DNA of 58,762 bases from an uncultured Gammaproteobacteria bacterium (GTDB taxonomy: Bacteria; Patescibacteriota; Microgenomatia; UBA8517). The notes under the pieces were generated by a model that did no database searches, was not told the DNA's origin, and was given only the letters and a program-made list of their open reading frames with translations. How positions within the stretch are numbered: the first letter of the stretch is position 1; the number at the start of each line of letters is the position of its first letter. The translations under genes were made by a program, and so were the position numbers. Positions 8,501-51,202 of this stretch are shown here, piece by piece. Location of the stretch: contig CAZPLB010000003.1 of the NCBI GenBank assembly GCA_964587425.1, positions 1-58,762 on the forward strand. Direction: 5' to 3'.

Positions 8501-10906
8501 GCCAGATGTTGGATTAAAGGTGGTTGGAGCCTGAATTACTTGTTGTTCACCACTAGTTACAGTTACAGTGCTTGGACTTCCACTCGCCCCACCAACGTCC
8601 AACATAATTCCATTTGCAGTAGCGGCACCGTTCACAGTTCCCTTAGTGCCATATATATTTGTATTACCGGCACCATTGCTAGTAAGAAAAATTGATCCGT
8701 TGCCGGGAGAAACTACTCCATCAGTGCTCCCAATCACTATATTGCCAGCCGTTGTCAAGATTCCTGTCGTACTAATTGAAGCCACATTTGATGTGTTGTG
8801 CCCATAGACCATGAAGGGGTTACTGCTTGTTGGAACAGAACTCCCTGCAGTTCCGTCATATCCAAGCGTTAAATCTCCCTCTGCATCAATTGAGGCCCTC
8901 TCTTCACCAGCTTGCCCAACACCAAGCATTTGTTCATCTGCAGAAGGTGTAGTTACATTTATTCGTATTGATGACTCAGCAAATGTAGTGTCCGCTGGGT
9001 TGTAAGTTGCAAGAATTTGCCCAGAGGAGGTGACACCAGAGTCTATGTTCAAGTTCGCCGCATAGATATTATTAAATTTCTTTGAAGCGCTTCCCAGGTC
9101 GCTTCCCAAGCTTACATCGGGAAGAAAAGATGAGCCAGAGCCAACAATCACATTTCCTGCAAAATAATTTTTTGAAGTTGCCCCAGCAGAATATATGTTG
9201 TAACTATTGCTTGATCCAACTGCACTTTGATCCTCAACATACAATCCGTAATTATTTGTAAAAGTTCCTCCTCCTGCATTTATAGCGGAGGGTATAAATA
9301 TACTGTAGCCAGTTGTGATTGCTCCTGATGAATAATTATATAAAGCAGACTCCAAACCCTTTGCTGTCCCCGTTGACGCAGTTGAGCCATTAAATACTGA
9401 AAAAAGCCCTCCTCGACCAAGTGTTACTGTACCGGATCCTTGATTGGCAGCTTGACCAACCACCCCATCTGATTCGCTAACTGTGCCTGATGAAGAGTTC
9501 TGTGAATACCCAGTTGTGGCTACTGAAAAAATCATATTTCCACTCCCTTGATGATTTACTAAAGAATAGATACCTTGCATGAAAGGTATGTTTTGGGAAT
9601 TTCCTGAACGACTTACAACTTCGTTGTCTATGCCATAAATAGAGGAGTCAACAGTTCCTGAAGGGTTAATATCAAGATAGTTTGCAACACCCAGTAAATA
9701 ATCATTACTATAGTCAGTTGGAGTTTCCTCAAGTGTTAGTGTATTACTTGTTGTAGAGCCAGAATTTAGTAAATTTATATCATCCACTGCTGCCGCATTT
9801 CCAAAAGCAACGTGTCCAGTCGTTGTAACAGAGTCTCCAGCATTAGTAGGGGATAAATTTGTCCCAGACCGTGTCCAAAATCCAACACTTCCAGAGCCGC
9901 TTGTATCTAACCAGGTTAAGTTCCCAGCTCCATCATTCGTAAGAGAAGAATTGGCAGCTCCTTGTGTATCAGGAAATGCATACGTAACTCCGTTAATTTC
10001 AGTTATGTTTCCAAAAGTTGCATTTCCTGAAACACTCAAAGCCCCTGAATCAGTAAGTGAAGAAACAGTTGTTGCCCCGGCAGTTGTTGTTCCAAGTGTA
10101 GTAGTACCTGATACTTTGAAATCTCCACTAGCAGTTAGTGTTCCTGCAAAGGTGCCAGTTCCAGAACCAGTGAACGCCCCTGATACATTTTGACTCCCTT
10201 TGACAACCAAATTATTATTAATGGTTGTTGTACCAGTAGCAGCTCCTACGCTTAAGGTAGTTGCAGCTCCTCCAATATTTAAAGTTGTTACACCAGTATT
10301 AACTAGGTTAAATGTAGTTTGATTCGTTGTGATATCTCCACCATTCACTGCCAAGTCACCTGGAAGAGTGAGTCCATCGGCTAAATTAAGATTACCTCGT
10401 ACAACTAAATCATTAACAGTTGTGGTTTGGCCGTTTACAGTCACATCCTTTGCGAACTGAACAATTTCTTTGAATATGGCAGGCACATTAATGTTGAACG
10501 TTGGGTTCAAATTTGTAGTCTGTGCCGCTAAAACCTTTGCAATGTTCTCTTTTGTCATACTTTGTATCTTTGAAGTAGTTTCTCCCTTCAAAACTATTCC
10601 TCCTGTGATAAGAAAGAAAAGAAGACCAAATGAATATCCTATAACCTTCTTTTGATCCACATGCATCCGCTTGTAGAGAAAAGCTCCATCCTGAGGCTGT
10701 AGCATGGAGCTCACCCTCTTCTTTGGATCCTGAGACCTTCTAGCCATTTTCTCAATAACTACGCTGTCGTACCTGCGGTGCCCACCCGCAGTCCGAATTG
10801 AGGAGATTAAGCCACTCTTTTCCCAGCGACGGAGAGTCTTCTCGGAAACAGATAATTTCCTTGCAGCTTCCTGTATTGTAATTAGATCGGGCAGTGTAGG
10901 ATTCAT
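5522..10906 (-). CDS. Giant membrane-anchored fibre-like protein: MerR/excisionase-type HTH, single TM, long G/T/S/N-rich beta repeats, peptidase-G2-like intramolecular chaperone domain, coiled coil, C-terminal beta domain
   Basis: LPDLITIQEAARKLSVSEKTLRRWEKSG..GGHRRY; TM VIGYSFGLLFFLITGGIVL; tail-fibre-like GNVGIGTTTP motifs; ADYAEQY..GIVS..VALNGRVPVKV..GDFVTTS..GKALE. Start moved from 10969 to ATG 10906, downstream of a predicted promoter. Confidence 0.8.
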   Translation of the reverse strand: MNPTLPDLITIQEAARKLSVSEKTLRRWEKSGLISSIRTAGGHRRYDSVVIEKMARRSQDPKKRVSSMLQPQDGAFLYKRMHVDQKKVIGYSFGLLFFLITGGIVLKGETTSKIQSMTKENIAKVLAAQTTNLNPTFNINVPAIFKEIVQFAKDVTVNGQTTTVNDLVVRGNLNLADGLTLPGDLAVNGGDITTNQTTFNLVNTGVTTLNIGGAATTLSVGAATGTTTINNNLVVKGSQNVSGAFTGSGTGTFAGTLTASGDFKVSGTTTLGTTTAGATTVSSLTDSGALSVSGNATFGNITEINGVTYAFPDTQGAANSSLTNDGAGNLTWLDTSGSGSVGFWTRSGTNLSPTNAGDSVTTTGHVAFGNAAAVDDINLLNSGSTTSNTLTLEETPTDYSNDYLLGVANYLDINPSGTVDSSIYGIDNEVVSRSGNSQNIPFMQGIYSLVNHQGSGNMIFSVATTGYSQNSSSGTVSESDGVVGQAANQGSGTVTLGRGGLFSVFNGSTASTGTAKGLESALYNYSSGAITTGYSIFIPSAINAGGGTFTNNYGLYVEDQSAVGSSNSYNIYSAGATSKNYFAGNVIVGSGSSFLPDVSLGSDLGSASKKFNNIYAANLNIDSGVTSSGQILATYNPADTTFAESSIRINVTTPSADEQMLGVGQAGEERASIDAEGDLTLGYDGTAGSSVPTSSNPFMVYGHNTSNVASISTTGILTTAGNIVIGSTDGVVSPGNGSIFLTSNGAGNTNIYGTKGTVNGAATANGIMLDVGGASGSPSTVTVTSGEQQVIQAPTTFNPTSGTGIFDLLTLKPIINQTGGANGISRGLYINPTLTAATDFRAVEIANNANYAIYQSGASATNYFAGNVAIATTSATQKLTVQDGTILSNHTLTNNYTLNGVLGGNRIFTNSSLGDAPILGVSMYNGAGTSPLAIKTNPLGVAFGDVGVVGAGLSTHGGGVNATGIYGYSIMDAGSAASSSTNNVVGGIFLTELGSTTTSFGGSMYGVYAKSTSAGAGSSAGSIYGSYNQAVGKSGDTTYGGYFTAASGTTNYGVYSNAGTNYFNGSTGIGDTTPDATLDIDFTGTTTNAFGITADSLTSGKAAFVTTAATAFTGNLVDITSTGGNAANTGTLLHVQSAATDAETTAMITNLGTGRSFRVNDETSDSDTTPFVIDASGNVGIGTTTPNTTWKLSTIDGNIGLVRDDTNIATVQSYWGSSTVYGLNVLANASSSDSFPNGYGVRLGHGFSVTPTSGTVDIVQAFSNSFSPTSGTAVMDLFGIRGTINQTGGASGITRGIYVTPTLTAAADFRGIEIADVTGHKAIYTNAGNVILNAGNAAATQFAFGTTSPVGKFHVTGAMVGKALGIFDETGDQDVFTASTSGTTRFRIANAGGTFLDLPGTGTGNALCHTTAGGVDNEEIVDCTSAPAADYAEQYPVEDGVSYGDIVAVGSQNVVTKDGKTIKKLVKSTSTYQTNIVGIVSNNYGDFTSAGYNINTSDNPMPVALNGRVPVKVSPTSQAINPGDFVTTSSDSGRAMKATQSGYVIGKALEAWTPNTNQDTVMVFVNNTYYIGDLSADGSLNGTSTDGGTLSQQPSQSTQIDGVDTQTQEKIASLSAEINNIKDRLSSLETANLTATSSAVLGIATDSATLSNLNVLGNTILGDTVVNGKLNIGTLSFDNANSSIDSIGKLKIQSLALDTIEFQNDSIEMDKNGNFNIKKGVIIGNDNIRGSEMVHTGNNEIQINKAWTTVPVSITANANWDSYVWVDNITKDGFTIHLKNSPTTDSQVMWNAIW

Positions 10907-10958
10907 GGGCTTCTTAAACTTGGACAACAGGCGTAAATTTGTCCAACTTTGACTACTT

Positions 10959-11019
10959 AATTTACGCATTTCGGCAGAATACTGTCAATAGCCTATTGAC
11001 TTTAAATTGAGGCTAAACT
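10959..11019. promoter_or_regulatory. Divergent promoter region with dyad GTCAATAG-C-CTATTGAC (10984-11000)
   Basis: Minus strand TTGACA(10988-10983)-18 nt-TAAAAT; plus strand TTGACT and TAAACT; perfect 8-bp inverted repeat containing both -35-like hexamers. Confidence 0.6.
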
Positions 11020-11029
11020 AGTGTTACTT

Positions 11030-11803
11030 ATGCTGCCCAAGGTATTTTTACTATATATAGCGCTCGTTTTAGTCTCTTTTCTGCGACCCACAGGGGTTTT
11101 AGCCCAGACTGAGCTCACAGGCCTTGCCGTATCAACACCAATATCTGAAACAGAGGCCAAAAACGGAGATTTAATATGCTCAGAAAAGGATCTTTACATT
11201 CTTTGTAAAACTGAATACGCACCCTCTATTTATGGGGTAATTAACGAAAACCCATCGGCAGCAATGGCCACAGACACTCAAGGCTTTCATCCTGTAGTAA
11301 CAACAGCAACTGCAAAGGTAAATGTCTCCTCCAAAAACGGCAACATAGCTCTAGGAGATTTTATAACAACTTCAACTACTCCAGGTGTTGGGCAGAAGGC
11401 AACCAGAAATGGCTTTGTAGTTGGGTTAGCGCTTGAAAATTATGAATCAAATGACCCAAACGCAAGTGGAGCCATATTTGTAGCCATAAATCCTCGCGCA
11501 ACAATCGAAATAGTGGAAAGTAAGAGCACAAATCTCTTGGACTTAATCCGTGAAGGTCTAAGTGCACCAGTTCTAACGCCCCTTGCAACAATTAGATACC
11601 TTAGTGCTGCCTTGGTAGTGATTGTTGCACTAGTTATCGGACTGATATACTTTGGTAGGGTTGCAAAGGCAGGGGTTGAGGCAATTGGTAGAAATCCACT
11701 TTCAAGTAGAGTGATACAGTCTGGTGTATTTTTACATGTATTCCTGACAATTGTAGTTGTAGGAGTAGGGCTTGCCATAGCATACTTAATCTTAACTCTT
11801 TAA
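11030..11803 (+). CDS. Membrane protein: signal peptide, IMC/peptidase-G2-like outer domain, C-terminal ATP synthase subunit-c-like hairpin without the carboxylate
   Basis: GDFITTSTTPGVGQKAT..GFVVGLALE resembles the neighbour's IMC domain; YLSAALVV..GVEAIGRNP..LAIAYLIL aligns to AtpE [17 protein letters not shown]; ORF also has GTG 11021. Confidence 0.65.
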   Translation: MLPKVFLLYIALVLVSFLRPTGVLAQTELTGLAVSTPISETEAKNGDLICSEKDLYILCKTEYAPSIYGVINENPSAAMATDTQGFHPVVTTATAKVNVSSKNGNIALGDFITTSTTPGVGQKATRNGFVVGLALENYESNDPNASGAIFVAINPRATIEIVESKSTNLLDLIREGLSAPVLTPLATIRYLSAALVVIVALVIGLIYFGRVAKAGVEAIGRNPLSSRVIQSGVFLHVFLTIVVVGVGLAIAYLILTL

Positions 11804-11809
11804 TTAAAT

Positions 11810-13489
11810 ATGTTTAATCTTTTCAACAAAAAATTAGTTCCAGGAAAAATTAAACCAATGGTATTAATAATTCTTGATGGTTGGGGTGTAGCCGCCCCTG
11901 GACTTAGTAATGCCATAACCCAAGCAAAACCAATCTTTTTCAACAAACTTCTCTCTCAGTATCCAAATGGCCAGCTCCTCGCTGCCGGTGAATCAGTTGG
12001 TCTCCCTGCAGGTGAAGTGGGTAATACTGAGGTAGGACACTTAAATCTTGGGGCTGGGAGAGTTATTTTGCAGGATCTTGTACGAATAGATAAATCAATT
12101 GAATATGATACATTTTTTGACAATGATGCAATTTTGAAAGCAATTGATCATGCTCGCTCAAATAATTCAAACCTGCACATAATGGGTCTTGTGGGGAGAG
12201 CTGGAGTTCACTCCTCACTAAACCATTTGTACGCAATCCTAGAAGCCTGTAAAAGAAAAAGATTGCAAAATGTATATATTCATGCATTCACGGATGGCCG
12301 TGATTCACCGCCCCAAGATTCAATAGACCTGATAAAAGAAGTCGAAGCAAAGATAAGTGTGTTGGGAGTAGGAAAAATTGCAAGTATAAGTGGGCGCTAC
12401 TGGGCAATGGATAGAGACTTTCACTGGGAACGAACAAAGGTAGTTTATGATGCATTAGTTAATGGTTTGACAGATTTTGTAGGGGAATCTACAGGAGAAT
12501 TAGTTAATGCAGCGTACAAGAGAGGAGAAACTGATGAATTCATAAAGCCCTCACTAATTACAATTAACAATAAAAAAAATACAATCTTAGATAATGATGC
12601 CTGTATTTTTTTTAACTACAGAATTGATAGACCAAGAGAGTTAACCATGGCAATGACTATTCCAAATTTTGAAGCACTCAAATCATTTGAATTTGGAAAA
12701 GATCCAGAAAAAGGAGGGAGAACAAGTGGAAGCATAAAATTTGATGCAACTTTCCAAAGAAGAAAAATTTTGAAAAACTTGTTTTTTGGAACCCTAACCC
12801 AATATGACCCAAGTATTCCAGTTAGTGCCATAGCCTTCCCTCCCGAAAAAGTAACAAATCCACTATCTAAGGTTTTGTCTTCGGCTGGAATTGCACAGCT
12901 CCATATGGCAGAAAGCGAGAAAGAACGTTTTGTGACTTACTATTTTGATGGACAAATTGAATCAGCGGTAGAAGGCGAAGAATTTCTGATCACTCCTTCT
13001 CCAAAAGTTGCAACCTACGACCTAAAACCAGAAATGTCCCTTCCCACTCAGGCTAGTGAATTTAAAAACCAACTTGCAAAAGATAAATATGCATTTTTTG
13101 TTATAAACATTGCAAATCCAGACATGGTTGCTCATTCCGGAAACATGAAGGCAACTATTAAGGCAATTGGAATAGTCGACAAATATCTTGAAGAGATGGT
13201 AACAAACATACTTTTAGTTGGTGGAACGGCGTTTATAACAGCAGACCACGGAAACGCTGAAGAACTTTTAAGCTATCAAGGAGAATCTTTTTACTTTACG
13301 ACATCAGTCGGAAAAGAAAACACAGAACATTCCAAAAGCCCTGTTCCAATAATAATTGTGAGCCAGAGCCTTTCTGGAAAACCACGTATGCTGCCGCGGG
13401 GTGCGCTAAAAGATGTTGCACCCACAATTTTAAAATTAATGGGAATACCAAAACCAGCTGAAATGTCTGGTATTAACTTGCTAGAATAA
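11810..13489 (+). CDS. gpmI: 2,3-bisphosphoglycerate-independent phosphoglycerate mutase
   Basis: ILDGWG, GNTEVGHLN, HAFTDGRD, GRYWAMDRD, NPDMVAHSG, TADHGN, TEHS motifs. Confidence 0.95.
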   Translation: MFNLFNKKLVPGKIKPMVLIILDGWGVAAPGLSNAITQAKPIFFNKLLSQYPNGQLLAAGESVGLPAGEVGNTEVGHLNLGAGRVILQDLVRIDKSIEYDTFFDNDAILKAIDHARSNNSNLHIMGLVGRAGVHSSLNHLYAILEACKRKRLQNVYIHAFTDGRDSPPQDSIDLIKEVEAKISVLGVGKIASISGRYWAMDRDFHWERTKVVYDALVNGLTDFVGESTGELVNAAYKRGETDEFIKPSLITINNKKNTILDNDACIFFNYRIDRPRELTMAMTIPNFEALKSFEFGKDPEKGGRTSGSIKFDATFQRRKILKNLFFGTLTQYDPSIPVSAIAFPPEKVTNPLSKVLSSAGIAQLHMAESEKERFVTYYFDGQIESAVEGEEFLITPSPKVATYDLKPEMSLPTQASEFKNQLAKDKYAFFVINIANPDMVAHSGNMKATIKAIGIVDKYLEEMVTNILLVGGTAFITADHGNAEELLSYQGESFYFTTSVGKENTEHSKSPVPIIIVSQSLSGKPRMLPRGALKDVAPTILKLMGIPKPAEMSGINLLE

Positions 13490-13493
13490 TAAT

Positions 13494-13940
13494 ATGAATA
13501 TTTTTGACAAACCGAAAGAAAAAAACCCTGACTTAATCTTGAAGCGAGCAAGGCGTAGTGCTCGAAAAATTGTAGAAGAAGCAAATTTAAAGGCAGGCAA
13601 AATTATCGAGGAAGCAGAAATCTTTACCCTTGAAGCAAGGCAGTATGCAGATAGAGCTCTCATAGAGGCAGCTGGAAAGGCTGCTGAAAAAATGGCAGAA
13701 GAATTGAAAAAAGAATTTAGTGTAAGAGAAACTGGTCTAGAAAAAGCAATAGGAGCAGAATATGAAAACGCAAAAAAAGAAATAGAAGAATACAAACTCC
13801 AAAAAATGAAGGAAATTGAGAGCAAAGTAAGAGAGGTGATAAGACAAGTTGTTGAAGAATTTTTTACAGAAGCTATTGACACAAAACAGCAGGAAGAAGC
13901 CCTCTTGAAAGCCCTTGAAAATGCAAAACATCTACTCTGA
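13494..13940 (+). CDS. atpF: ATP synthase subunit b-like coiled-coil protein lacking the N-terminal TM helix
   Basis: A/E/K-rich helical sequence (ARKIVEEANLKAGKIIEEA) directly before the delta/alpha genes; in-frame TAG at 13482 excludes an upstream TM extension. Confidence 0.55.
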   Translation: MNIFDKPKEKNPDLILKRARRSARKIVEEANLKAGKIIEEAEIFTLEARQYADRALIEAAGKAAEKMAEELKKEFSVRETGLEKAIGAEYENAKKEIEEYKLQKMKEIESKVREVIRQVVEEFFTEAIDTKQQEEALLKALENAKHLL

Positions 13941-14340
13941 AATTCTAACAAATGTAAAAACTGTCAATGAGGCAGAAAATTTAGTATCTGATATGGAAAG
14001 CTATATATCAAATAGTTTCAGACTAGATACCAGTAACGAGATGAGATGGGCAACATTTAATCTCATCAAAAGATATACCGGTGGTGACAAAACAGATCAG
14101 GAATTTTTGAAAGGACTAATAGAAGCACTTCATAAAGCGCCCATTGTCAAAATTGAAGTTGCTTTTGAACCGAAAGTTAGAACCATTGATTTGCTAAGCA
14201 AATGGGCAAAAACAAAAGTTGGAAATGATACTTTAATTGAAATAAAAAAAATTCCAGAGCTATTGCTGGGGGCAACTGTCAGTTTTAATGGAAAATATGA
14301 CGACTTAACACTCTTGAAATTTTTAAATGAAAAACTTTGA
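13921..14340 (+). CDS. atpH: ATP synthase delta-like subunit
   Basis: C-terminal OSCP-like pattern VKIEVAF..IEIKKIPELLLGATVSFNGKYDDLT; position before atpA. Confidence 0.65.
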   Translation: MQNIYSEILTNVKTVNEAENLVSDMESYISNSFRLDTSNEMRWATFNLIKRYTGGDKTDQEFLKGLIEALHKAPIVKIEVAFEPKVRTIDLLSKWAKTKVGNDTLIEIKKIPELLLGATVSFNGKYDDLTLLKFLNEKL

Positions 14341-15747
14341 CACCTACCTCAAGGATACCGCAGAAATTGGCTATGTAACAAAAATAGCCAAATGTCTTCT
14401 TTCAGCATCTGGTCTCCCTGGAGCCCACGTTGGAGAGTTAGTTGTTTTTGAAAATGGAGAGATGGGACAAGTTTTAAAAATTGATAAAGATGAAATCGAA
14501 ATTTTAACTCTTTCACATACAAATATAGCTGGAGGTGCAAAAGTAGCAAGAACAAACGAATTTTTAAATATCCATTGTTCAGAAAGTATTTTAGGTAAAA
14601 ACATAGATCCACTAGGACAACTTCTTGACGGTGCTGAAAGTACGACAGGTGGAGAAGATAGATTAATCGACTCAGCCCCCCCTGGAGTATTAGAAAGAAA
14701 AATGGTAACAGAGCCTCTTGAGACCGGTGTTCCTCTTGTTGATCTAGTTGTCCCTCTCGCCAAAGGACAAAGGGAATTGGTATTGGGTGACAAAAAAACT
14801 GGAAAGACAAGCTTTCTTTTGCGCGCCATCTTTACCCAGGCCAACCAGGGTACCATCTGTATTTATGCAGCTATTGCCAAAAAAGAAATTGAAACAGCAA
14901 AGATAGAAGAATTTTTAATGAAAAGTGGTATTCGCGACAAAGTAATCATGGTAACAACTCATGCAGCAAGCCCAGAAGGCCTCATCATAATTACTCCATA
15001 TACTGCAATGACAATTGCAGAATACTTTAAGGATCAAGGCAAAGATGTTCTTTTAATCTTGGATGATATGAGCTCGCATGCCAAGTTCTACAGAGAAGTT
15101 TCTCTCCTTGGGAGACGTTTCCCAGGCAGAAATTCATACCCGGGCGATATTTTCCATCTTCATGCAAAAATTCTTGAGCGGGCCGGTAGATTTCCAAAGG
15201 GATCAATAACCTGTCTTGCAGTTGGTGAAACTGTTTTCGGAGATCTCTCTGGCTATATGCAAACAAATTTAATGTCCATGACCGATGGACACATTTACTT
15301 TGACTCTGACTATGCAAACCTAGGAAGGCATCCTGCCATAAACCCATTTCTCTCTGTCACAAGAATTGGCCACCAGGCTCAAAGCCAATTGGTAAGAAGC
15401 ATTGCAAGCGAGCTTGCAAAATTTCTTCTTCACATTGAAATGTTAAGAGATGTAATGCACTTTGGAGCAGAGCTTTCAGAAAAAACAATTGACGAGCTTG
15501 ATTTAGGAGAGCGAATACTTGCTTTTTTTGATCTGCCGGAAGGCTTAGTCCTTCCCCAAACGCTTGCAATTTTTTGTTTGACAACAGTATGGCTCGGCCT
15601 GGGTAAGTCCAAAGAAAGAGGTTTTGTGAAGGAAAAAACAAAAGAATTCTTTCAAAAATACCAAGCTGACGCGGGATTTAGAAAGGAAGTAGATGAATTG
15701 CCAGTCAAATATACAGATTTTAAAGATTTAATGAGAGGAGTACGCCC

Positions 15748-15766
<19 letters not shown>
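14327..15766 (+). CDS. atpA: F1-type ATPase alpha subunit (divergent)
   Basis: Walker A GDKKTGKT, PYTAMTIAEYF, PGRNSYPGDIF, TDGHIY, LSVTRIG arginine finger. Confidence 0.93.
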
Positions 15767-18240
<2,474 letters not shown>

Positions 18241-24971: not shown

Positions 24972-25187
24972 ATGGATACAAACGTAAAAAAGAAAATCAA
25001 ATTGCAGGATTTACCAGACCTACTTACAGTTCGCGAAGTTGCCGACCTCCTTCGAGTTTCAGTTCTAACAGTAAAAAGGTGGGGCAAAAGAGGCAAGCTA
25101 ACTCCAATTAGAATTAATTCAAGAGGGGATAGAAGATATAAAAAAGAAGCAGTCCTCTGGATGCTTGGAATCGAAGCGAAGGAATAA
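24972..25187 (+). CDS. Stand-alone MerR/excisionase-type HTH protein
   Basis: LPDLLTVREVADLLRVSVLTVKRWGKRGKL..RGDRRY. Confidence 0.88.
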   Translation: MDTNVKKKIKLQDLPDLLTVREVADLLRVSVLTVKRWGKRGKLTPIRINSRGDRRYKKEAVLWMLGIEAKE

Positions 25188-50575: not shown

Positions 50576-51202
50576 TTAAATTGTTCCTATCCCAGGCAAG
50601 AAAATATTCAGAAAAAACCTCATAATGGGGAAAATTATGATAGATATTGGTGAAGACCCTCCCCAAATAGGCATTATTAGGAAAATCAAAACAAAAAGAC
50701 CATATCTTTGCATAAATAAATCAACTTGTCTTCCTTCACGGTTAGGCAGTAGTGCAATCAAAACCTTCCCTCCATCAAGTGGATGAATTGGGAGTAAATT
50801 AAAAGAGGCAAGTGCAACGCTTATAATTACAAAATTGGTCAAAAATGGAGAGATGATAACACTAGCTTCAGGCACTAAAAACCGTAAAACTAATGAAGCA
50901 ATAGAGGCAGTAACTAAATTTGAAATCGGTCCAGCAATTGAAATCAAGGCTGAGTCTCTTTTGGGGTTACCAAGATTATATGGATCAAACTGTACTGGTT
51001 TCCCCCAACCAAATCGAAAACCAGTCAGTATCATGGCCAGAGTTCCAATGGGGTCAAGATGTTTAATAGGGTTAAGTGTTAACCTCCCCATAAGCCTCGC
51101 AGTTGGATCTCCAAGCTCATTTGCCATCCACGCATGAGCCGCCTCGTGAAAGGTGAGAGCTGCAAGAAGTGCGATAATTTCAAAAACAAAAAACTCAAAC
51201 AT
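50576..51202 (-). CDS. Site-2 protease (M50 family)
   Basis: HEAAH, AGPISN, FNLLPIHPLDGGK. Confidence 0.95.
   Translation of the reverse strand: MFEFFVFEIIALLAALTFHEAAHAWMANELGDPTARLMGRLTLNPIKHLDPIGTLAMILTGFRFGWGKPVQFDPYNLGNPKRDSALISIAGPISNLVTASIASLVLRFLVPEASVIISPFLTNFVIISVALASFNLLPIHPLDGGKVLIALLPNREGRQVDLFMQRYGLFVLIFLIMPIWGGSSPISIIIFPIMRFFLNIFLPGIGTI

What the first reader, a model, noticed from the sequence alone, without database searches (positions are those of the whole stretch)
10580..10906. Cytoplasmic MerR-type HTH tethered by one TM helix to a ~1,650-aa extracellular fibre
Seen: HTH (first ~55 aa), linker, TM, then tail-fibre-like repeats, including a duplicated ~55-aa unit PTSGT..INQTGGA.GI.RG.Y..PTLTAA.DFR..EIA at ~8370-8530 and ~6960-7120. 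Inference: either a one-component host-contact sensor (fibre binding changes HTH clustering) or an anchor tying the chromosome to the attachment pole.
Basis: partly seen in the sequence, partly recalled or inferred. Interest (0 to 1): 0.65.

Follow-up and report, generated by a model that had tools for sequence, protein, structure and literature searches.

The report
Surface fibre with DNA-binding cytoplasmic head
A 1,794-residue surface fibre of an ultra-small (Patescibacteria) bacterium starts inside the cell with a BldC/MerR-type DNA-binding domain, and conserved TTGGACA sites in front of its own gene suggest that the fibre controls its own production from the membrane.

Summary
One ORF (5522-10906, minus strand, 1,794 aa from the likely start) encodes, in order:
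- a winged helix-turn-helix that passes Pfam's MerR cut-off; its closest solved relative is BldC;
- a ~30-aa low-confidence linker;
- one transmembrane helix;
- a 1,688-aa acidic, Gly/Thr/Ser-rich fibre with the stated internal duplication and a phage-fibre-like, lectin-like C-terminal module.

The fusion is no start-codon artefact. 18 of 20 long HTH-headed ORFs from other Patescibacteria genomes have the same plan.

A better candidate operator is TTGGACA-N13-TGTCCAA at 10920-10946, between the -10 box and the start codon. This half-site tracks heads with the recognition helix xKTLRRW:
- present upstream of 21 of 23 such genes, against 2 of 39 with other heads;
- found as inverted pairs or as 10-bp direct repeats;
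- paired only once in this genome.

Best reading (about 0.55, inferred): a membrane-tethered autoregulator, perhaps also acting on the conserved divergent c-like/F1-ATPase operon. Host-contact sensing and chromosome anchoring remain untested.

By definition it is a transmembrane transcription regulator, but I found no description of this architecture.

The parts
5522..10906 (-). Gene for the HTH-TM-fibre protein (1,794 aa plus stop), counted from the likely start ATG 10906
   Evidence: database gene call of 1,794 aa. Orthologues start at the equivalent position.
10907..10969 (-). In-frame upstream extension of 21 codons from ATG 10969, probably not translated
   Evidence: ATG 10969 lies between the -35 and -10 boxes of the only promoter-like site found here.
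10959..10988 (-). Sigma-70-type promoter: -35 TTGACA 10988-10983, 18-nt spacer, -10 TAAATT 10964-10959
   Evidence: 10 of 12 matches. The same promoter-dyad-ATG layout occurs in orthologous leaders.
10984..11000 (.). 17-bp palindrome GTCAATAG-G-CTATTGAC, read here as two back-to-back extended -35 elements of the divergent promoters
   Evidence: TATTGAC is enriched as an extended -35. L080 has the analogous GTCAA-N13-TTGAC.
10920..10946 (.). Candidate operator TTGGACA-N13-TGTCCAA in the leader. It starts 13 bp after the -10 box and ends 13 bp before the ATG.
   Evidence: The half-site is specific to xKTLRRW heads. This is the only paired site in the genome.
10733..10906 (-). BldC/MerR-type winged HTH (aa 1-58; Pfam MerR match at aa 10-46, nt 10769-10879)
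10646..10732 (-). Basic, low-confidence linker (aa 59-87)
   Evidence: pLDDT about 50-57. The TM helix sits at aa 88-290 in relatives, so linker length varies.
10589..10645 (-). Single transmembrane helix acting as signal anchor (aa 88-106)
   Evidence: Hydropathy. AF2 models a long helix at aa 83-132.
5525..10588 (-). Extracellular fibre (aa 107-1794)
   Evidence: Composition and pI. PHROG tail-fibre hit. C-terminal module shared with more than 200 CPR giants.
8369..8530 (-). Copy A of the duplicated ~55-aa unit (PTSGT..INQTGGA..PTLTAA.DFR..EIA)
6959..7120 (-). Copy B of the duplicated unit
6188..6625 (-). Conserved beta domain with invariant D and E of the DYAE motif (6608-6619). It is also shared with the neighbouring c-like protein.
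   Evidence: Alignment A1. AF2 pLDDT above 90. Fold resembles phage capsid decoration proteins. 43% identity over 54 aa to the c-like protein.
6017..6094 (-). Predicted helix (model residues 227-252), a possible coiled-coil neck
5525..5725 (-). C-terminal tip domain resembling H-type lectins and tail-fibre tips
   Evidence: Weak Pfam H_lectin hit. Foldseek hits to 2ccv, 7eea and R2 pyocin fibre. The C-terminal tail is conserved in complete relatives.
11030..11803 (+). Divergent neighbour: c-like 257-aa membrane protein at the head of the iPGM/F1-type ATPase cluster
   Evidence: The divergent pairing recurs in 13 loci.

Best explanation
The protein is a membrane-anchored surface fibre whose cytoplasmic N-terminus is a functional DNA-binding head.

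Synthesis and topology (inferred from sequence). Translation from ATG 10906 first makes a monomeric BldC-like winged HTH. Residues 88-106 then act as a signal anchor with N-in/C-out topology. The 1,688-aa fibre is exported and probably assembles as a phage-like trimer through its conserved C-terminal module.

Regulation (inferred, not shown). The head, held at the membrane on a flexible ~30-aa linker, recognises TTGGACA half-sites. In this genome these form one inverted pair at 10920-10946, just downstream of the promoter of its own gene. Occupancy there would most likely block transcription. That gives negative feedback of inserted fibre on fibre synthesis. It may act in cis, because the nascent chain inserts into the membrane while its own 5.4-kb gene is still being transcribed.

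The same control region serves the divergent c-like/iPGM/F1-ATPase operon, which may be co-regulated.
For: 1. Fold and sequence. MerR Pfam domains score above their cut-offs. BldC is the best PDB relative by sequence and by fold, at 1.5 A.

2. DNA-contact residues. The BldC contact residues named in PMC5859096 (K26, T27, R30, W31, K33, H46, R47, R48) are all kept in this head. T27, R30 (31 of 32) and R47 (31 of 32) are kept across 32 HTH domains of giant relatives, window included.

3. Conserved architecture. 18 of 20 long HTH-headed ORFs from other genomes have 1-2 HTH domains, exactly one TM helix and a K/R-poor fibre.

4. Interchangeable heads. Homologous fibres carry tandem integrase SAM-like DNA-binding domains in the same cytoplasmic position.

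5. Conserved cis element. The layout -35/-10, then TTGGACA-N10-14-TGTCCAA, then ATG recurs in 9 orthologous leaders from at least 5 families whose flanks and spacers differ.

6. Head-site correlation. 21 of 23 xKTLRRW heads have a strict half-site within 160 nt upstream, against 2 of 39 other heads (Fisher p = 3e-12). Among loci not chosen by their motif the count is 13 of 15. STLRRFE heads have a different dyad, TTTACTAT..ATAGTAAA.

7. Direct repeats. In L118, L104, L099, L107 and L072 the half-sites occur as direct repeats at 10-bp spacing. A hairpin cannot explain this. It matches how BldC multimerises head to tail on direct repeats.

8. Uniqueness. This is the only place in the 777-kb genome with two half-sites within 45 nt.
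Against: - No binding or expression data exist.
- The dyad could also fold as an RNA hairpin (-10.4 kcal/mol, z = -2.1).
- The arms never vary, so covariation cannot decide between DNA and RNA in the inverted cases.
- Head type and motif may be co-inherited, so the counts are not phylogenetically independent.
- Two K-type genes (L061, L106) lack a strict site.
- The NCBIfam BldC model scores below its cut-off (45.8 against 77).
- A different factor could bind the sites.
- Repression rather than activation is only inferred from the position downstream of the -10 box. In L101 the sites lie upstream of the -35 box.
Confidence: 0.55

Rival explanations
1. Contact or tension sensor. The head is kept inactive or active at the membrane. 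It changes state when the fibre engages a host, through clustering of trimers or through release by regulated intramembrane proteolysis. That would switch the fibre gene and the divergent ATPase operon.
For: - The lectin-like, tail-fibre-like tip suggests ligand binding.
- The genome keeps two site-2 protease (Peptidase_M50) genes, one of them at 50576-51202.
- A juxtamembrane motif is conserved.
- The pairing with a surface-directed ATPase cluster is conserved.
- All the DNA-binding evidence listed for the main explanation also applies.
Against: - No cleavage site or site-1 protease has been identified, and there is no rhomboid.
- The linker varies in length and is modelled with low confidence, which argues against a conformational relay.
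- Most homologous fibres have no head at all, so signalling is not inherent to the fibre.
Confidence: 0.15
2. The HTH does not bind DNA. It would be a cytoplasmic protein-interaction or topogenic domain, like the HTH of RodZ that binds MreB. It would dock the fibre to a cytoplasmic partner such as the F1-like ATPase, or simply enforce N-in topology.
For: - RodZ is a precedent for HTH-TM-ectodomain proteins that use the HTH for protein binding (my own knowledge).
- The gene is paired with the c-like/ATPase operon in 13 loci.
- The strongly basic head favours N-in insertion.
Against: - The residues that are conserved are the DNA-contact positions.
- A second, unrelated DNA-binding fold occupies the same place in homologous fibres.
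- A specific half-site co-varies with the recognition helix.
Confidence: 0.12
3. The TTGGACA element is real but belongs to something else: another regulator, or an RNA-level 5' stabiliser or translational element. The head would then bind other DNA or none.
For: - The inverted form can fold as RNA.
- Many other giants carry long leader dyads with 10-11-nt arms, which look hairpin-like.
- These 5-20-kb mRNAs might need 5' protection.
Against: - Direct-repeat arrangements at 10-bp spacing cannot form hairpins.
- In L101 the copies lie upstream of the -35 box, so they would not be transcribed from that promoter. Further copies lie at the c-like end of the intergenic region in L070-L073, in L073 upstream of the c-like -35 box.
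- The arms are invariant with no compensatory changes across families.
- The element associates strictly with one head subtype.
Confidence: 0.1
4. Locus or chromosome anchor, RacA-like. The head pins DNA to the membrane at the fibre's site for positioning or segregation rather than for transcription control.
For: - RacA is among the structural neighbours.
- A membrane-tethered DNA binder necessarily brings its site to the membrane.
Against: - There is only one paired site in the genome, at the gene's own leader, whereas RacA uses many sites (my own knowledge).
- The gene is absent from most genomes of the same family, so it cannot be a core segregation function.
Confidence: 0.08

Closest known systems
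BldC (Streptomyces; PDB 6AMK, 6AMA; PMC5859096)
   Same: - Minimal MerR-like winged HTH with no coiled-coil or effector domain.
- 44% identity and 1.5 A rmsd.
- K26, T27, R30, W31, K33, H46, R47 and R48 are all kept.
- The candidate sites occur as short half-sites, in some genomes as roughly 10-bp direct repeats, which fits head-to-tail binding.
   Different: - BldC is a free 68-aa cytoplasmic protein with a developmental regulon.
- Here the domain is the first 3% of a membrane-anchored 1,794-aa fibre.
- The candidate half-site is TTGGACA, not AATT-N4-C.
- The NCBIfam BldC model scores below its cut-off.
Transmembrane transcription regulators (ToxR, TcpP, CadC; survey in PMC10269533)
   Same: - A cytoplasmic DNA-binding domain, a single TM helix and an extracytoplasmic domain in one polypeptide.
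- It meets the survey's operational definition.
   Different: - Those use OmpR-type or other heads and small periplasmic sensor domains.
- Here the head is BldC/MerR-type.
- The outside part is a 1,688-aa phage-fibre-like structure.
- The only evident target is the gene's own leader.
RacA (Bacillus subtilis chromosome anchor; PDB 5I41, 5I44)
   Same: A MerR-like wHTH used to tie DNA to a membrane-associated site. It is a structural neighbour.
   Different: RacA is soluble, dimerises through a coiled coil, reaches the pole through DivIVA and binds many GC-rich sites. None of that is seen here.
RodZ
   Same: The order is N-terminal cytoplasmic HTH, one TM helix, then an extracytoplasmic domain.
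   Different: RodZ has an Xre-type HTH that binds MreB, not DNA. Here the DNA-contact residues and a cognate site are conserved.
MYRF (eukaryotic membrane-bound transcription factor with a phage Peptidase_S74 domain)
   Same: It combines a DNA-binding domain, a TM helix and, in relatives of this protein, a tailspike intramolecular-chaperone domain that drives trimerisation.
   Different: - In MYRF the S74 domain lies between the DBD and the TM helix on the cytoplasmic side, and its cleavage releases the DBD.
- Here S74 (found in relatives only) is far out in the ectodomain.
- The DBD is MerR-type, not Ndt80-type.
Phage tail fibres and tailspikes with C-terminal assembly modules
   Same: - Gly/Thr/Ser-rich beta fibre with a PHROG tail-fibre hit.
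- Relatives carry Peptidase_S74 and Beta_helix domains.
- The tip resembles H-type lectins and tail-fibre tips.
   Different: - It is chromosomal and anchored in the cell membrane by its own TM helix.
- It has a cytoplasmic DNA-binding head.
- The window protein itself has no S74 match.

Membership tests
MerR family HTH (Pfam PF00376, PF13411) | N-terminal winged HTH that matches the family model above its gathering score | tested here: met
   PF00376 scores 49.4 bits against 28.2, and PF13411 scores 34.6 against 21.6.
MerR family (classical regulators) | Coiled-coil dimerisation helix and a C-terminal effector-binding domain after the HTH | tested here: not met
   The HTH is followed by a low-confidence linker and a TM helix. 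No further cytoplasmic domain is present.
MerR family (classical regulators) | Operator inside an over-long (19-20 bp) -35/-10 spacer | tested here: not met
   The spacer is 18 bp, and the conserved dyad lies downstream of the -10 box.
BldC family (NCBIfam NF033787) | Score above the subfamily cut-off | tested here: not met
   45.8 bits against a cut-off of 77.
BldC family | BldC fold with the DNA-contact residues (K26, T27, R30, W31, K33, H46, R47, R48) | tested here: met
   The residue list comes from PMC5859096.
BldC family | Binding to direct repeats as head-to-tail multimers | not testable with these tools
   The only support is indirect: 10-bp direct repeats of the half-site in five related loci.
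Transmembrane transcription regulators (as defined in PMC10269533) | A predicted DNA-binding domain plus a predicted TM region in one protein | tested here: met
   The definition was read.
Transmembrane transcription regulators | Regulates transcription while in the membrane | not testable with these tools
   There is only a candidate operator.
ToxR/CadC-like receptors | OmpR-type (Trans_reg_C) winged-helix head | tested here: not met
   No such Pfam hit. The head is MerR-type.
Peptidase_S74 (intramolecular chaperone) tail fibres | S74 domain near the C-terminus | tested here: not met
   Absent from the window protein at E <= 1. Present in the relatives L036, L037 and P0003.
   There is no Pfam hit. 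The PDB sequence search found only two chance-level matches at E about 1. Foldseek's best hits are capsid decoration proteins, not gp12. D and E of the DYAE motif are nevertheless invariant.
H-type lectin (PF09458) | Domain match above the cut-off, or a clear fold match | tested here: inconclusive
   Pfam gives 15.5 bits against 24. Foldseek to 2ccv gives E 0.036, probability 0.98, TM-score 0.37 normalised by target length.

The most novel reading that the evidence does not exclude
The fibre, its DNA-binding head and the conserved divergent c-like/iPGM/F1-type ATPase operon may form one 'touch-to-transcription' unit. Host attachment or load on a trimeric lectin-tipped fibre would change the clustering, or the site-2-protease-dependent release, of three BldC-like heads. 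That would switch both divergent promoters. It would give genome-reduced episymbionts a one-protein link between host contact and gene expression.
Probability: 0.15. Interest if true: 0.88.

Novelty: new variant of a known kind. Interest (0 to 1): 0.66.

Why it matters
A 2024 perspective states that how these bacteria regulate their life cycle is virtually unknown, and that the mechanisms governing differentiation between host-attached and free cells are completely unknown (PMC11665869).

This family puts a DNA-binding domain directly on large surface fibres. About half of the sampled genomes of the class have a matching head (199 of 401).

The analysis now gives a concrete, cheap test: a defined 7-bp half-site, a 27-bp candidate operator and a recognition-helix residue that tracks it.

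If binding is confirmed, this would be a membrane-bound regulator whose 'sensor' is a structural fibre of several hundred nanometres. It would also be a natural case of head/operator co-variation that could be used to read the regulatory wiring of uncultivated bacteria.

Public annotation currently calls such 2,000-aa proteins 'MerR family DNA-binding transcriptional regulator' or 'hypothetical'.

Tried and rejected
1. The 12-mer CTATTGACAGTA shared with the promoter of the free 71-aa HTH gene. It occurs exactly twice in the genome. However, 8 of the 12 bases are the lineage's extended -35 TATTGACA. The free HTH has a different recognition helix and is a class-wide orthologue. I treat the match as weak evidence.

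2. The 17-bp palindrome as an operator. It was not seen in the 12 other loci that share the gene pair. It is explained by overlapping divergent -35 boxes.

3. A k-mer search across 20 mixed giant leaders. It found only promoter elements. The signal appeared only after the heads were split by recognition helix.

4. An RNA-hairpin reading of the leader dyad. It is energetically possible but contradicted by the direct-repeat arrangements.

5. The Peptidase_G2/gp12 identity of the DYAE domain. It was not recovered.

6. Searches with the C-terminal module. PHROGs gave nothing. The PDB sequence search gave only two chance-level matches at E about 1.

7. The genome-contig scan with the C-terminus. 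It returned one locus only.

9. Literature searches for a description of this architecture. None was found. The library holds only open-access papers and preprints.
Full report
**What is there**

The minus strand between 5522 and 10969 is one open frame of 1,815 codons. The public gene call for the same protein starts 21 codons further in, at ATG 10906, giving 1,794 aa.

The only sigma-70-like promoter in the 124-bp gap to the next gene has its -35 box (TTGACA) at 10988-10983 and its -10 box (TAAATT) at 10964-10959. ATG 10969 therefore lies inside the promoter, and ATG 10906 is the probable start. Orthologues begin at the equivalent residue.

**The cytoplasmic head**

- Residues 10-46 match Pfam MerR at 49.4 bits (cut-off 28.2). 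MerR_1 and HTH_17 also pass.
- NCBIfam ranks BldC first, but below its cut-off.
- The closest solved structures by sequence are BldC 6AMK and 6AMA, at E 5e-9.
- An AF2 model built on 17 homologues gives pLDDT around 80-97 for residues 1-58. It superposes on DNA-bound BldC at 1.5-1.6 A with 43-45% identity. SoxR, RacA, CarH and a phage Xis follow.
- The BldC residues that contact DNA (K26, T27, R30, W31, K33, H46, R47, R48; PMC5859096) are all retained.
- Across 32 HTH domains of giant relatives, window included, T27 is T or S throughout. R30 and R47 are each kept in 31 of 32.

**Linker, TM helix and topology**

- After the head comes a basic stretch modelled with low confidence (aa 59-87).
- One hydrophobic helix follows (aa 88-106), and there is no other TM segment.
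- The head has pI 10.6 and net charge +10. The remaining 1,688 aa have pI 4.4 and net charge -59.
- Together with the absence of an N-terminal signal peptide, this indicates a type II signal anchor with the head inside the cell. This is inference; no topology predictor was available.

**The fibre**

- It is rich in Gly, Thr, Ser, Asn and Ala and almost free of Lys, Arg, Glu and Cys.
- It gives a PHROG tail-fibre hit.
- The last ~416 aa form a module shared with more than 200 giant Patescibacteria proteins.
- Modelled on 32 sequences (pLDDT 75), the module has three parts:
  - a confident beta domain carrying the invariant D and E of the DYAE motif, whose best PDB fold matches are phage capsid decoration proteins;
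  - a long helix;
  - a tip that resembles H-type lectins and tail-fibre or pyocin-fibre tips.
- The suggested phi29 gp12/G2 identity was not recovered.
- Relatives carry Peptidase_S74, Beta_helix and even an intein. A phage-like trimeric fibre is likely but not shown.

**The fusion is a conserved design**

- In 401 genomes sampled across the phylum, the head occurs in four settings:
  - free 60-95-aa proteins;
  - ~250-aa cytosolic proteins;
  - an IS607-type recombinase;
  - ORFs of 500-6,425 aa.
- Of 20 such long ORFs fetched, 18 have one or two N-terminal HTH domains, exactly one TM helix at residue 100-290, and a fibre-like remainder. The complete ones end in the same C-terminal tail as this protein.
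- Of the 120 listed fibres that share the C-terminal module, roughly half start with a plain N-terminal hydrophobic anchor. About a quarter show no TM segment at my hydropathy threshold (some may be truncated). About one in six has the HTH head. Four have a ~410-aa cytoplasmic part instead. In the two of these that I checked by Pfam (P0093, P0111), that part holds tandem integrase SAM-like DNA-binding domains.
- Two unrelated DNA-binding folds in the same position argue that DNA binding itself is what is selected.

**The candidate DNA target**

TATTGAC is the common extended -35 of these leaders. The divergent gene seems to be transcribed almost leaderless from the opposite -35 box (inference, by analogy with L073). 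I did not find the palindrome in the 12 other loci that share the gene pair.

What is conserved is a second dyad, TTGGACA-N13-TGTCCAA at 10920-10946. It starts 13 bp after the -10 box and ends 13 bp before the ATG.

- The same arms stand in the same place in the Woesebacteria GW2011 orthologue (L059) and, with one mismatch, in G128.
- A pattern scan of 401 genomes of the class found the dyad in 26. That is hardly more than the reversed-pattern control.
- However, in 8 of those 26 it lies 12-115 nt upstream of an HTH-headed giant gene, where almost none would be expected by chance.
- The leaders share the order -35/-10, dyad, ATG. Their spacers (10-14 nt) and flanks differ.

An independent protein search for the head then gave further orthologues. 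In their leaders the half-site recurs in other arrangements:
- inverted pairs at other spacings;
- runs of direct repeats at 10-bp (once 12-bp) spacing in L118, L104, L099 and L107, and at the c-like end of the intergenic region in L072;
- copies upstream of the -35 box (L101).

The association with head type is strong.
- 21 of 23 heads with the recognition helix xKTLRRW have at least one strict half-site within 160 nt upstream, against 2 of 39 other heads.
- Leaving out loci that were found through the motif, the count is 13 of 15.
- Heads of the STLRRFE type carry a different dyad, TTTACTAT..ATAGTAAA.
- The lysine that marks the K-type heads aligns with BldC K26, a base-contacting residue.
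- In the window's whole genome, the gene's own leader is the only place with two half-sites within 45 nt.

**DNA or RNA**

The inverted form could fold as an RNA hairpin (-10.4 kcal/mol, z = -2.1). Four observations fit a monomeric DNA-binding domain on a flexible tether better than a hairpin:
- the arms are invariant, with no compensatory changes;
- the spacing varies;
- direct-repeat versions exist;
- some copies lie upstream of promoters.

**Mechanism proposed**

The following steps are all inferred.
1. The head is made first.
2. The signal anchor inserts co-translationally.
3. The fibre assembles outside the cell.
4. The tethered head or heads occupy the leader sites and limit further transcription.

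In a cell a few hundred nanometres across, and with transcription, translation and insertion coupled, the gene's own leader is the nearest DNA. Feedback in cis is therefore physically plausible.

The gene is divergently paired with the c-like/iPGM/F1-type ATPase operon in 13 loci, three of them outside the class. In L070-L073 further copies of the motif lie at the c-like end of the intergenic region. Co-regulation of that operon is therefore possible.

A sensor role is not excluded. The genome has two site-2 proteases and no rhomboid. Nothing tested here speaks directly for it, and the variable, low-confidence linker argues against a conformational relay.

**Comparison with known systems**

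By the definition used in PMC10269533 (DNA-binding domain plus TM region), this is a transmembrane transcription regulator.
- It is not a classical MerR: it has no coiled coil, no effector domain, and no operator within the spacer.
- It is not a ToxR-like receptor: it has no OmpR-type head.
- It is not a BldC family member by NCBIfam's cut-off, although its head folds like BldC and plausibly binds DNA as BldC does.

I found no paper that describes the architecture. NCBI names some members 'MerR family DNA-binding transcriptional regulator'. Earlier notes of this scan report the same family in many genomes. I used them as leads only, and derived the TTGGACA element and its link to the K-type helix from my own searches.

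**Limits**

- There are no binding, expression or localisation data.
- The TSS, start codon, topology and trimeric state are all inferred.
- The motif statistics are not corrected for shared ancestry.

Noticed in passing
window 11030-18240; loci L059, L061, L070-L073, L080, L081, L014, L028, L015, L016: The HTH-fibre gene is divergently paired with a ~260-aa c-like membrane protein (followed by iPGM in the window, L059 and L061; the window continues into an F1-type ATPase cluster) in 13 loci, three of them outside the class. The two proteins share a 54-aa stretch at 43% identity.
   Followed up: partly
proteins P0093, P0111 (also P0077, P0119): Fibres with the same C-terminal module carry a ~410-aa cytoplasmic part and a TM helix at ~412-434 instead of the MerR head. 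In P0093 and P0111, Pfam finds tandem Phage_int_SAM_1 domains there and no integrase catalytic domain. Both head types are DNA-binding modules typical of mobile-element recombinases.
   Followed up: partly
L036 (G200:C6), protein residues 548-776: An Intein_splicing domain (52.6 bits) lies inside the extracellular part of a 2,803-aa HTH-headed fibre.
   Followed up: no
window 24972-25187 (+): A free 71-aa HTH protein (LPDLLTVREVA...RINSRGDRRYKKE) is a highly conserved orthologue across the class. Its recognition helix differs from that of the fibre head. Its promoter shares CTATTGACAGTA with the fibre promoter.
   Followed up: partly
window 50576-51202 (-) and G000:C3:78509-79501: This 777-kb genome has two Peptidase_M50 (site-2 protease) genes and no rhomboid.
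   Followed up: no
L057 (G200:C6), L058 (G274:C12): These 284-316-aa proteins have two HTH domains, one TM helix and a small C-terminal part that looks SH3-like by eye (not checked against Pfam). Their promoters carry TTGTCAA-(T/C)AG-TTGACAA. They look like a short-ectodomain version of the same head-TM module.
   Followed up: no
L006, L012, L027: Cytosolic ~250-aa proteins have the same HTH fused to a domain with a GNNSFDHN motif, possibly a GHKL-type ATPase. They have no TM helix.
   Followed up: no
L088 (CAYSEQ010000015.1): A contig of a MAG labelled 'uncultured Gammaproteobacteria' encodes a fibre C-terminus 62% identical to this one. It is probably a misbinned Patescibacteria contig.
   Followed up: no
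window 10440-10530 (aa ~127-157 from M22) and alignment A2: A juxtamembrane motif about 30-50 aa outside the TM helix (VL.A........FNVN....F) is conserved among the closest HTH-headed fibres. Its role is unknown. It could be a processing or stalk-assembly site.
   Followed up: no
window 10996-11030 (+): The c-like operon appears to be transcribed almost leaderless: -35 TTGACT 10996-11001, -10-like TAGTGT 11019-11024, ATG 11030. L073 has the same layout.
   Followed up: partly
Protein-representative hits P0125, P0129, P0176: Some proteins of 400-660 aa carry 7-8 tandem copies of this HTH.
   Followed up: no
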